A DNA stretch of 64,000 nt, from NCBI RefSeq assembly GCF_006345805.1, contig NC_043020.1, positions 28,086,001 through 28,150,000 on the forward strand, written 5' to 3'. This document shows positions 19,501 through 42,384 of the stretch, one piece after another; positions within the stretch are counted from its first letter, which is position 1, and every line of letters starts with the position of its first letter. The position numbers and the translations under genes are program-made. The stretch comes from Octopus sinensis (Eukaryota). The notes under the pieces were generated by a model. That model did no database searches. It saw only the letters and a program-made list of their open reading frames with translations, and was not told the DNA's origin.

Positions 19501-20099
19501 TTAAAGTGATGATGAAAGCCACTGATACCCTAAATAGGGGCCGCTAGAGAACCGAGGGACTTTGTCTTCACGCAAAGATTCAGAGTCTGGCAATCCTTCG
19601 ATGGATTCTTTCAGTTTTTTCCAAGAGGGACATTTGTAAATTTGGTGTTGACGAACAGGCGAGAAAATGAGTTTGAGAAGAGATAAACCTTTGCTATGTA
19701 CATCATATGTTTCACCCACATACTCAAATATTTCCATAATGTCTTCTATGATATGAAATTTCGGTAGTTCTTGTAAGCATTTCGGTATATCCGTCTTACT
19801 CTGTTGGCAGATAACGGCTGCCGGCAGAGAAGAATTCATAAATAAAATATTTTGGAAAAATATCGCTGTCATTTCTCTAGAATCTGCAATGCATTTCCAA
19901 TGAGATGGCATGATAAAGAAAATGGTTTGGATTTGGGAAGTGGAATAATAATCCAGGCAGGAGAGTTCGTTTGCATCAAGAGTTTCTACAACCCATTTGA
20001 AGTTCTTTTCAAAAACTTTTTTCAATACGTTGGTAACTTGTTCATCATGGGAATTTTGGTGAAAAGTCACTAAGAGTACAGTGCCTGGTGTCTTTCGAC
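19501..20099 (-). CDS. IL-17R-like terminal exon, SEFIR/TIR-like domain
   Basis: TTTCAG acceptor; 198 open codons in unique sequence: [24 protein letters not shown]...IFFIMPS...AVIC...[25 protein letters not shown] stop. Confidence 0.78.
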
Positions 20100-41000: not shown

Positions 41001-42384
41001 GTGTGATAAAGGAAAGTGTGCATGAACAAAAGTAAAAAGACAAACAGGAAGACAGTGCAAATGCACATGAAGTGAAAGCTGGGCCATTGCTTTAAGCCCC
41101 TGCGATCCCTATGGTGAGTGAATTTGGTAGGTGGAAACTGAAAGCAGCCCATCGTATATGTGTGTGTGTGTAAACACACCAGCATCGGTTTTCAAGGGAT
41201 GTTGGGGGGACAAACTCACACGCAAACATACACACACACACACACATATATATATATATATATATATATACATATACATATATACGGTGGGCTTCTTTCA
41301 GTTTCCATCTACCAAATCCACTCACAAGGCTTTGGTCGGGCCAAGGCTATAGTAGAAGACACTTGCCCAAGATGCCACGCAGTGGGACTTAACCCGGAAC
41401 CATGTGGTTGGTAAGCACCTACATACCACACATCCACTCCTACACCTATATATATATATATATAATATATATATATATATATATATATATTGTTATATTT
41501 CGGAATGGTCATTTTGCCAGTTTAGCCAATAAAACACACGCACTATATATTTGGTGTTACATAACCACTCACAAGGCTTTGTCACATAAAAATCTTGCAC
41601 AACAAATATTTAAACGTATATATATATATATATATACATCTACACACTTACATACATATAGATAGATAGATAGATAGATATAGAATATACATTTGTGAGT
41701 GTGTATGTGTATGTACATATGTATTTGTGTGTGTTATGTGTGTTATCAGGTGTATTATGAGCATTTATGGAACACAGCCCTATATAAACTCCAACACATT
41801 GTGCATATAGATATTATATATATATATATATATATTTATATGTAATATATATATGTATATATATATATGTATATATATATATGTATATATATATATATAT
41901 ATATATATATATTATATATATATATATATATATATATATATATATATATATTATATATATATAATATATACACACACAACATGCACATATGTGTACACAC
42001 ACATACATAGACACACACATTTTATATACACTCATGCATATATATATATAGCCAGTTTTCTATTCATCTACTTACAATTTGCCGACAAGGGTATGGAGTA
42101 AATCTCCGAAGAAGGTTGTCACAATTTCCTGTCGATCCCACCTGGGCCATTAAAAGCAGAATGAGAGAAACCCCCTGTATCCAACCAAGGGGTTTCAGGG
42201 TCCAGATCTTGTTAGTACTGCTGCTGCTGCTGTATTTGTCATTTTTATCATCATTATTACTATCATCATCATCATCATCATCATCATCATTATTATTATT
42301 GTTGTTATTATTGCTATTATTATTATTATTATTTTTACATTTTATTCTTTTAAAAGCAGCATGGACATCACAACAGCTTATCAT
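19501..42384 (-). CDS. IL-17 receptor-like type I membrane protein (SEFIR-like cytoplasmic domain), about 530-590 aa, spliced gene
   Basis: Phase-consistent exon chain 42076-42207(+), 40877-40928, 38437-38595, 37390-37520, 35060-35177, 33377-33522, 31933-32005, 30341-30445, 25411-25494, 19501-20099. Ectodomain motifs parallel IL17RA from memory ([44 protein letters not shown]); hydrophobic TM; SEFIR-like tail. Confidence 0.8.
20170..20660 (+). mobile_element. R4/Dong-like non-LTR retrotransposon 3' end (restriction-like endonuclease)
   Basis: [10 protein letters not shown]...[27 protein letters not shown]...IPIIIGTLG; (TAA)n tail. Confidence 0.88.
20665..21125 (-). mobile_element. RTE 3'UTR-only copy with minisatellite
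   Basis: Reverse complement of 28560-29200; related copies near 6700-7040, 16240-16550, 35650-36050, 45770-46230, 53640-53940, 63090-63410. Confidence 0.85.
21175..22055 (+). mobile_element. Decayed R4/Dong-like ORF N-terminal fragments split by a SINE
   Basis: [13 protein letters not shown]...EQRLCD...[11 protein letters not shown] and KQPWWK. Confidence 0.6.
22140..22598 (+). mobile_element. CR1-like LINE 3' fragment
   Basis: ORF 22152-22445, ATT tail. Confidence 0.85.
23340..23600 (-). mobile_element. R4/Dong-like 3' fragment
   Basis: Reverse-complement similarity to 20400-20620. Confidence 0.6.
24056..24446 (+). mobile_element. Mariner transposon 3' remnant with TIR
   Basis: [26 protein letters not shown]...[12 protein letters not shown]; end CAAACTTTCTGGACAACCCAATA. 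Confidence 0.9.
24752..25007. mobile_element. Foldback/MITE with about 85 bp inverted arms
   Basis: GTTTCACGTTCC...TTTGAT versus ATCAAAC...GGAACGTGAAAC. Confidence 0.75.
25411..25494 (-). CDS. IL-17R-like juxtamembrane exon candidate ([28 protein letters not shown])
   Basis: TTTTAACAG acceptor, GTACGT donor, symmetric phase 1-1; optional for frame. Confidence 0.5.
26125..29205 (+). mobile_element. 5'-truncated, frameshifted RTE-clade LINE with long 3'UTR and (GAT)n tail
   Basis: ORF pieces 26362-28446 with [54 protein letters not shown]; 3'UTR ends GGAAGGGCATCCAG...CGTTAAACGATGATG. Confidence 0.92.
28625..29030 (+). repeat. 63-64 bp minisatellite (about 6 units) in the RTE 3'UTR
   Basis: CCTCGTCT recurs at 28741, 28805, 28868, 28932, 28995. 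Confidence 0.9.
29361..29505. mobile_element. Near-perfect palindrome, same family as 24752-25007
   Basis: AAAGCAGCAGAAAATTCAACAAAACCTGTTACTCTGAGTTTCACGTT.. mirrored about 29433. Confidence 0.8.
30341..30445 (-). CDS. IL-17R-like transmembrane exon ([35 protein letters not shown])
   Basis: TTACAG acceptor, GTAAGT donor, phase 1-1; hydrophobic run of about 22 residues then NRIK. Confidence 0.87.
30460..30885. repeat. Compound (TAA/GAT/GAC)n trinucleotide repeat
   Basis: Directly visible; immediately upstream of the TM exon acceptor. Confidence 0.95.
31310..31666 (+). mobile_element. CR1-like LINE 3' fragment
   Basis: [20 protein letters not shown] tail. Confidence 0.85.
31933..32005 (-). 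CDS. IL-17R-like exon ([24 protein letters not shown])
   Basis: TTTTCAG acceptor, GTGAGT donor, phase 0-1. Confidence 0.8.
32045..32376. repeat. (CA)n compound microsatellite
   Basis: Directly visible. Confidence 0.95.
32567..32948 (-). mobile_element. Non-autonomous Helitron-like element
   Basis: Same termini on the minus strand (CTAG, CCCGGCGTTGCTTGGG hairpin, TCTATATATATAAAAG). Confidence 0.72.
33377..33522 (-). CDS. IL-17R-like exon ([15 protein letters not shown]...[16 protein letters not shown])
   Basis: CACAG acceptor, GTATGT donor, phase 1-0. Confidence 0.8.
33950..34870. repeat. Near-identical 536 bp tandem duplication, each copy with a 54 bp inverted repeat, TA-flanked; possibly Penelope-like ends
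   Basis: Identical ORF at 34060 and 34596; arms 34144-34197 / 34278-34331. Confidence 0.85.
35060..35177 (-). CDS. IL-17R-like exon ([39 protein letters not shown])
   Basis: T-rich tract plus CAG, GTAAGC donor, phase 0-1. Confidence 0.82.
35351..35543. mobile_element. Long-TIR MITE
   Basis: ATTCTGTTGTGTCTGGGGAGAGTCATTCTCTTTT and its reverse complement at the ends. Confidence 0.78.
37390..37520 (-). CDS. IL-17R-like exon ([44 protein letters not shown])
   Basis: TTTACAG acceptor, GTATGT donor, phase 1-0. Confidence 0.82.
38437..38595 (-). CDS. IL-17R-like exon ([14 protein letters not shown]...[13 protein letters not shown])
   Basis: TTCCAG acceptor, GTCTGT donor, phase 1-1, 159 nt open. 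Confidence 0.82.
38630..39170. mobile_element. Two further tRNA-derived SINEs (families C and D), opposite orientation
   Basis: tRNA-like heads; related pieces at 43000-43160, 46260-46640, 53940-54240. Confidence 0.65.
39793..40812. repeat. Tandem repeat of about 432-436 bp, 2.4 copies, in an IL-17R-like intron
   Basis: Unit starts at about 39793, 40225, 40661; copies differ mainly by small indels. Confidence 0.88.
40877..40928 (-). CDS. IL-17R-like exon ([17 protein letters not shown])
   Basis: Strong pyrimidine tract plus CAG, GTATGT donor, phase 0-1. Confidence 0.8.
42076..42384 (-). CDS. IL-17R-like first coding exon with signal-like segment ([43 protein letters not shown]); 5' boundary uncertain
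   Basis: GTAAGT donor after 42076, phase 0; in-frame ATG at 42384 through N/D/S repeats, or weak acceptor at 42207. Confidence 0.7.

What the first reader, a model, noticed from the sequence alone, without database searches (positions are those of the whole stretch)
19501..42384. Hidden, highly divergent IL-17-receptor-like gene spread over 23 kb of repeats
Seen: ten phase-compatible GT-AG exons giving signal-like segment, Cys-containing ectodomain with NxS/T sites (NCT, NNS, NLT, NGS, NMT), TM helix and a 198 aa cytoplasmic exon. Known: IL17R ectodomains begin C-x-x...NCTV, continue P-x-(L/V)-x-(I/L)-x-W/I-x-LP then DASI-x-YL-x-G, and end in SEFIR; octopus has an expanded IL-17-like ligand family whose receptors are little characterised. 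Inference: a cephalopod IL-17R paralog; the second FN3-like domain looks shortened relative to IL17RA. Strongest biological candidate in the window.
Basis: partly seen in the sequence, partly recalled or inferred. Interest (0 to 1): 0.72.

Follow-up and report, generated by a model that had tools for sequence, protein, structure and literature searches.

The report
Octopus IL-17 receptor with pared-down tail
This is a real, spliced octopus gene, misnamed in the database, for a fast-evolving relative of the IL-17 cytokine receptors whose inner signalling domain is cut down, so it likely works as a ligand-selecting partner of a conserved receptor; at least ten related receptor loci lie in the same genome.

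Summary
Confirmed. Ten GT-AG exons (minus strand, 42384-19501) give a 581-aa single-pass protein identical to a RefSeq model misnamed 'metabotropic glutamate receptor-like protein N'; spliced contigs in four runs fit the chain. Pfam finds neither SEFIR nor IL17R domains, but paralogy to the genome's conserved SEFIR receptor is strong: ectodomain profile E 2.6e-8 (0 of 2000 shuffles), the first eight introns share order and phase, and Foldseek ranks IL-17RA first, narrowly. The cytoplasmic domain is a weakly scoring, shortened SEFIR (predicted loss of the CC' insertion) with a 15-residue membrane linker and a 31-residue tail, and is 76% identical between two Octopus species against 100% for the conserved receptor. 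Best reading: a ligand-selecting co-receptor (0.42); close rival: decoy or brake (0.33). Ligand binding is untested. The genome holds at least ten further SEFIR-receptor loci and 52 IL-17 matches, against a published statement that IL17R was found only in nautilus among cephalopods. Degenerate IL-17 receptors are a known phenomenon, so this is a new member of a known kind. Three look-ups found no earlier scan note on this gene.

The parts
42076..42384 (-). exon 1: ATG, Asn/Asp-rich low-complexity stretch, signal-like hydrophobic segment, first two ectodomain cysteines (aa 1-103)
   Evidence: collinear with P0001; only its 3' ~210 nt fit the contig lengths
40877..40928 (-). exon 2 (aa 104-120), NCT sequon
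   Evidence: intron positions match the conserved receptor at offsets 1 and 0
38437..38595 (-). exon 3 (aa 121-173), start of FN3 domain 1
   Evidence: spliced contigs in 4 of 4 runs; profile match
37390..37520 (-). exon 4 (aa 174-217)
   Evidence: spliced contigs in 4 of 4 runs
35060..35177 (-). exon 5 (aa 218-256), end of FN3 domain 1
   Evidence: contig pieces in X1, X4, X8
33377..33522 (-). exon 6 (aa 257-305), FN3 domain 2
   Evidence: contig length arithmetic; model pLDDT 64-86
33114..33167 (-). exon 7 (aa 306-323), FN3 domain 2
   Evidence:+23; 3' intron at offset 0 to the conserved receptor
31933..32005 (-). exon 8 (aa 324-347), last strand of domain 2
   Evidence:+23
30341..30445 (-). 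exon 9 (aa 348-382), transmembrane helix
   Evidence: hydropathy 3.6;+23
19501..20099 (-). exon 10 coding part (aa 383-581 and stop): shortened SEFIR-like domain and 31-residue tail
   Evidence: contigs in X1, X4, X7; profile 7.5-8.5 bits; model topology
18784..19500 (-). 3' untranslated region, at least to 18784; AATAAA at 18822
   Evidence: the same X1 contig runs to 18784

Best explanation
The gene is spliced and encodes a single-pass paralog of the octopus IL-17-type receptors, which likely serves as a ligand-selecting co-receptor: its two FN3 domains would bind some of the many IL-17-like cytokines and would pair with the conserved long-tailed receptor, which would recruit the adaptor. 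Shown: exon chain, splicing, paralogy, short linker and tail, fast divergence. Predicted: double-FN3 and SEFIR-type folds, loss of the CC' insertion. Inferred by analogy with IL-17RA/RB: ligand binding, pairing, and division of labour.
For: Paralogy: ectodomain scores 19.5 bits (E 2.6e-8) on a profile of four SEFIR-receptor ectodomains, 0 of 2000 shuffles reach it; hhalign score 40.0 against a best null of 20.7 in 60 shuffles; first 8 introns have phases 0,1,1,0,1,0,0,1 in both this gene and the conserved receptor, three at alignment offset 0 and one at 1. Cytoplasmic domain: 7.5-8.5 bits on three SEFIR profiles (1 of 2000, 3 of 3000, 3 of 3000 shuffles reach it), ortholog 10-12 bits; 0.4 bits on an octopus TIR profile. 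Foldseek ranks 1-2 are IL-17RA ectodomain chains, with no vertebrate sequence in the alignment. Geometry: membrane-to-betaA linker 15 residues against 32-37 in the conserved clade; tail after the last helix 31 against 306-392. In the human complex the co-receptor IL-17RB has a ~17-residue linker and does not touch ACT1, while IL-17RA has ~31 residues and a long extension that anchors ACT1 (PMC12828022, passages and section 8). The genome has 52 IL-17 matches and one receptor whose SEFIR region is 200/200 identical to its O. bimaculoides ortholog.
Against: No Pfam SEFIR or IL17R hit. The SEFIR model is low-confidence (block pLDDT 37-58), came from an alignment chosen for collinearity, and the N-terminal half aligns differently in other sequence sets. 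Foldseek's lead over generic FN3 tandems is under sixfold in E-value. The tryptophan that marks vertebrate co-receptors (PMC12828022 section 8) has no counterpart after strand B here. Mutations in the IL-17RB SEFIR abolish signalling, so a true co-receptor SEFIR should be held by its partner; here it changes faster than the ectodomain (41/168 against 35/263 differences, Fisher p 0.004), which fits a decoy as well. Other octopus receptors also have short linkers (9-11 residues).
Confidence: 0.42

Rival explanations
1. Decoy or brake: it binds IL-17 or joins receptor complexes but its degenerate SEFIR blocks adaptor assembly, damping IL-17 or Toll-type signalling, as IL-17RD does in mammals.
For: SEFIR 76% identical between two Octopus species against 100% for the conserved receptor, and faster than its own ectodomain; betaC-to-betaD span 29 residues against 38-50 in six other receptors measured; the aromatic motif after the last helix, present in the others, is absent; no TRAF motifs. 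Zebrafish IL-17RAL and mouse IL-17RD inhibit MyD88 signalling (PMC11087794, passages).
Against: The domain is kept full-length and in frame in three species' records and still looks like a folded five-stranded domain; a pure ligand sink would not need it.
Confidence: 0.33
2. IL-17R paralog that has switched to another ligand, such as a Trunk/PTTH-type cystine-knot hormone.
For: Only about 21-24% identity to its closest paralog; arthropod IL-17Rs bind CFSH and PTTH (PMC11087794, passages).
Against: The genome has 52 IL-17 matches and the four N-terminal cysteines line up with the conserved receptor.
Confidence: 0.12
3. Stand-alone receptor whose shortened, TIR-sized domain recruits MyD88-type adaptors directly.
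For: Language-model features are nearest to TIR clusters (0.81-0.88, lead only); the CC' insertion is one of the features that set SEFIR apart from TIR (PMC4014126, passages).
Against: No sequence likeness to 13 octopus TIR domains (z -1.4 to 1.0, against 2.9-5.5 for the conserved SEFIR clade).
Confidence: 0.1
4. Not an IL-17R relative, or a decaying pseudogene.
For: No curated domain hit; 5 of 7 last-exon differences in run X7 change the amino acid.
Against: Intact frame in several species, spliced contigs, shared introns, two independent profile matches in the right order; in X7 the coding part differs at 7 of about 596 nt against 20 of about 304 nt of UTR.
Confidence: 0.03

Closest known systems
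Conserved molluscan two-FN3 SEFIR receptor (O. bimaculoides LOC106868418 = P0007; bivalve 'IL-17 receptor D-like'; locus L002 in this genome)
   Same: Domain order, four N-terminal cysteines, first eight intron phases and a phase-1 intron before the SEFIR exon; best profile and pairwise scores.
   Different: No Ser/Thr stalk (9 against 66 residues), no cysteines in domain 2, linker 15 against 32, betaC-betaD 29 against 49, tail 31 against 392; evolves far faster.
Human IL-17RB / IL-17RC co-receptors and IL-17RA (PMC12828022, PMC4014126)
   Same: Predicted double FN3 (Foldseek top hits IL-17RA), single helix, SEFIR-type topology; short linker and tail like IL-17RB.
   Different: No sequence match to their ectodomains; no co-receptor tryptophan; CC' insertion predicted lost; binding untested.
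ILCR1-type octopus receptors (PF23608 + SEFIR; P0011-P0014, L003, L004, L047-L052, L094)
   Same: Short membrane linker, phase-1 SEFIR exon, divergent SEFIR.
   Different: They carry a cysteine-rich Ig_ILCR1 domain and, where measured, a long stalk; they are multi-copy on contig C11, whereas this gene is single-copy.
Its own database records: XP_029650504.1 'metabotropic glutamate receptor-like protein N'; XP_014781951.1 'uncharacterized', UniRef 'SEFIR domain-containing protein'
   Same: Identical protein (P0004) and 75% ortholog (P0001).
   Different: The first name is unsupported (one transmembrane helix, no such domain hit); neither record is named an IL-17 receptor.

Membership tests
IL-17 receptor family (definition in PMC11087794) | Type I single-pass membrane protein | tested here: met
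   One strong hydrophobic helix at 353-374; weak signal-like stretch at about 65-84.
IL-17 receptor family | Two extracellular FN3 domains | tested here: met
IL-17 receptor family | Descent from a SEFIR-bearing receptor gene | tested here: met
   Ectodomain profile E 2.6e-8; 8 of 8 first intron phases shared in order.
IL-17 receptor family | SEFIR domain at Pfam's curated cut-off (PF08357) | tested here: not met
   No hit at E up to 1 or 10.
IL-17 receptor family | SEFIR homology and fold by custom profile and model | tested here: inconclusive
SEFIR domain | Long CC' insertion between strand C and helix C (PMC4014126) | tested here: inconclusive
   Span 29 residues against 38-50 and an 8-residue loop in the model point to loss, but the strand assignment rests on a low-confidence model and an unstable alignment.
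IL-17 receptor family | Binds an IL-17 cytokine | not testable with these tools
   Needs a binding assay.
IL-17 receptor family | Signals through CIKS/Act1 by SEFIR-SEFIR contact | not tested
   No CIKS gene was sought or identified in this genome.
TIR-domain receptors (TLR / IL-1R) | TIR domain sequence | tested here: not met
   0.4 bits on a profile of 13 octopus TIR domains, 511 of 3000 shuffles reach it; no Pfam TIR hit.
Metabotropic glutamate receptors (database name) | Seven transmembrane helices and Venus-flytrap domain (recalled) | tested here: not met
   One helix; no such Pfam hit.

The most novel reading that the evidence does not exclude
Octopuses read their expanded IL-17 ligands with a combinatorial receptor code: one frozen signalling chain plus ten or so fast-evolving partner chains that domain searches miss, and this gene is the extreme member, a SEFIR that has shed its defining insertion and acts as a dedicated brake or selector on the pathway.
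Probability: 0.3. Interest if true: 0.72.

Novelty: new member of a known kind. Interest (0 to 1): 0.5.

Why it matters
The IL-17 expansion is a well-known oddity of octopus genomes (31-36 genes in O. bimaculoides, PMC8353272), yet its receptors are undescribed in the papers searched, and one genome paper states that IL17R was found specifically in nautilus (PMC8257504, section read). This gene and ten further SEFIR-receptor loci give a concrete receptor list, so ligand-receptor pairing can be tested directly. It is also a natural test of which SEFIR elements a receptor needs.

Tried and rejected
Candidate 30-nt exon at 20399-20370 (my own, in frame): rejected, absent from P0001 and P0004 and from contig lengths in X1, X4, X7. 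No RNA holder was on record (runs are guessed RNA). Run X15 as a DNA control was uninformative: its contig ends at the repeat by the exon edge. Single-sequence AlphaFold of P0001 failed (mean pLDDT 36.5). Sequence searches of PDB with the exon, the whole protein and the small family gave nothing significant; the profile A10 found only SEFIR structures, through the canonical rows, and no IL-17R ectodomain. VIA-align lists (top 50, dominated by domain 2) showed no IL-17R, SEFIR or TIR entry. Complex prediction of the ectodomain with one of the 52 ligands gave no answer (score 0.00, alignments not used). The SEFIR tree puts this gene on a 5.3-long branch, so its place is unresolved. Database searches for relatives found only Octopus records and one unnamed 189-aa fragment at 33%. 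Atlas hits were all under 0.9. Alignments A2, A5, A7 were misregistered and not folded. The 437-bp tandem in intron 2 is a dispersed repeat, not extra exons. No SEFIR exon was found within 37 kb downstream of Ig exon L039. The 2015 octopus genome paper was not held.

Full report
Observation. Reading the minus strand gave ten exons with GT-AG introns and one frame of 581 aa; 1,746 coding bases span 22,884. The translation is identical to P0004, XP_029650504.1, named 'metabotropic glutamate receptor-like protein N', and 75% identical and collinear with P0001 of O. bimaculoides, 'uncharacterized', which UniRef calls 'SEFIR domain-containing'. O. vulgaris records hold it as an ectodomain piece and two cytoplasmic pieces. 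It is single-copy in its genome as far as two searches see (1 match of 15 candidates; 8 matches to its own exons plus one stop-ridden row of 13 candidates).

Splicing. On 34950-39150 one contig per run skips 916 nt between 37520 and 38437 (CT..AC) in 4 of 4 runs from four studies; record coordinates make exons 4 and 5 contiguous in X1, X4 and X8. The same contigs carry the last exon. The distance in record coordinates is 378 nt in X1 and X4, the exact sum of exons 6-9, and 496 nt from exon 4 in X7, the sum of exons 5-9. This rejects my own candidate 30-nt exon. The runs are guessed to be RNA; contigs show neither level nor tissue.

What it is related to. Pfam finds nothing relevant in the exon, P0001 or P0004. 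A Pfam SEFIR search of the genome gave 3 of 17 candidates, none this gene. Two of them seeded a search that returned 24 molluscan SEFIR proteins. A profile of four full ectodomains of the conserved clade (P0007-P0010) scores this ectodomain at 19.5 bits, E 2.6e-8; the best of 2000 shuffles is 4.5; hhalign gives 40.0 against 20.7 for the best of 60 shuffles. SEFIR profiles score the cytoplasmic part at 8.5, 7.6 and 7.5 bits (1 of 2000, 3 of 3000, 3 of 3000 shuffles reach it) and the ortholog at 12.3, 11.5 and 10.2; the signal lies in the C-terminal half, and hhalign is marginal (23.8 against 22.1). A profile of 13 octopus TIR domains gives 0.4 bits. Global-alignment z is 2.9-5.5 for four conserved-clade SEFIRs, 0.1-2.6 for six ILCR1-type ones and -1.4 to 1.0 for 13 TIRs. 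The strongest independent evidence is gene structure: the conserved receptor gene at locus L002, mapped with P0010 (393 of 394 residues), has phases 0,1,1,0,1,0,0,1 at its first eight located introns, as here, at alignment offsets 1, 0, 0, 5, 5, 14, 0 and 4 residues; both have a phase-1 intron before the SEFIR exon; it has two more introns (its first phase rests on the acceptor alone). If only phases 0 and 1 occurred, equally often, eight matches in order would arise 0.4% of the time.

What is unusual. Against the conserved receptor: stalk 9 against 66 residues, no cysteines in domain 2, linker 15 against 32, betaC-betaD span 29 against 49 (38-50 in all six others measured), tail 31 against 392, no TRAF motifs. 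Between this genome and O. bimaculoides the ectodomain is 86-89% and the SEFIR region 76% identical, while the conserved receptor's SEFIR region is 200 of 200 identical and 197 of 200 to Argonauta; the SEFIR differs more than the ectodomain (p 0.004).

Mechanism. In the human IL-17RA/RB/ACT1 filament the short-linker co-receptor IL-17RB stabilises the IL-17RA dimer and does not touch ACT1, while IL-17RA uses its CC insert and long extension (PMC12828022; passages and section 8 read). The CC' insertion and helix C are SEFIR-specific features (PMC4014126; passages). By analogy the frozen, long-tailed octopus receptor is the adaptor-binding chain and this gene a ligand-selecting partner. That is inference. 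The fast change of its SEFIR, and the lack of the co-receptor tryptophan, fit a decoy nearly as well.

Genome context. IL-17: 52 matches among 83 candidates. Receptors: an octopus SEFIR profile found 9 exons at E up to 1.7e-4 among 19 candidates (two weak rows with stops dropped; L052 has an in-frame stop), and a tenth turned up 8 kb behind an Ig_ILCR1 exon. Nine of these ten lie 8-30 kb downstream of a same-strand Ig_ILCR1 exon. Scanned directly, L047 passes the Pfam SEFIR cut-off, L050 falls just under and L049 has no hit. Some may be haplotype or very recent duplicates (L003/L004, L047/L052, L050).

Literature. PMC11087794 (passages and two supplementary files searched) reports that degenerate FN3 and SEFIR domains are common in IL-17Rs and that most species have two to four receptors; octopus appears in its supplement only for Torso. 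PMC8257504 (section 11 read; figure 6b and supplements not seen) says IL17R was specifically identified in nautilus and IL-17 expanded in octopods. PMC8353272 (passages; supplements not read) gives 31-36 O. bimaculoides ligands and six mussel receptors. PMC7190641 (passages) describes the C. elegans ILCR-1/ILCR-2 pathway in neurons. Ten searches, including accession numbers, listed no paper on this gene or on octopus IL-17 receptors; subscription papers and the 2015 genome paper were not available and may bear on this. The scan's own notes held nothing on it.

Verdict. Real gene, IL-17R paralog with high confidence (about 0.93), mechanism open. New member of a known kind; interest 0.5, raised by the hidden receptor repertoire and lowered by existing annotation and the known tendency of the family to degenerate.

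Noticed in passing
G000 C11 72.7-73.2 Mb, C11 48.4 Mb, C11 11.1 Mb, C13509 (L003, L004, L034-L043, L047-L052, L094): Cluster of ILCR1-type IL-17 receptor loci with divergent SEFIR exons, most missed by the genome-wide Pfam search; one has an in-frame stop and one Ig exon (L039) has no SEFIR exon within 37 kb.
   Followed up: partly
G000 C1 27.3-27.6 Mb and 134.1-134.9 Mb: Two large tandem clusters hold most of the 52 IL-17 matches, largely in long single open frames.
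   Followed up: partly
window 14096-15064 +: Intronless 323-aa short-chain dehydrogenase (PF00106, E 3e-34); no close second copy in the genome. Resembles DHRS1 (recalled).
   Followed up: partly
window about 7440-7775 and 9711-10013 -: Two reading frames that look like exons of a tRNA methyltransferase TRMT11-type gene (recalled), which would lie head to head with the dehydrogenase; Pfam and PDB searches gave no support.
   Followed up: partly
window 26090-28443 +: Broken LINE-type element with a reverse-transcriptase domain (PF00078, E 8e-28), antisense in intron 9.
   Followed up: partly
window 39790-40804: 2.3 tandem copies of a 437-bp unit in intron 2; a dispersed repeat family with many copies at 94-96% identity (782 candidates).
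   Followed up: yes
window 33794-34900: A unit of about 540 bp with an AT microsatellite is duplicated head to tail in intron 5; related sequence occurs near 29660-29780 and in the 3' UTR region (seen).
   Followed up: no
window 17980-18198 +: Mariner transposase C-terminal fragment (SETMAR/Mos1, E 3e-7).
   Followed up: yes
window 42241-42337 (exon 1): A trinucleotide repeat encodes an Asn/Asp run ahead of the signal-like helix; kept in frame, with different length, in O. bimaculoides, and flanked by a conserved cysteine-containing N-terminus.
   Followed up: no
P0002 and P0003: Both records end at an exon boundary before the transmembrane exon; they may be annotation splits or hint at soluble forms.
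   Followed up: no
window 48001-50000: 100-base assembly gap.
   Followed up: no
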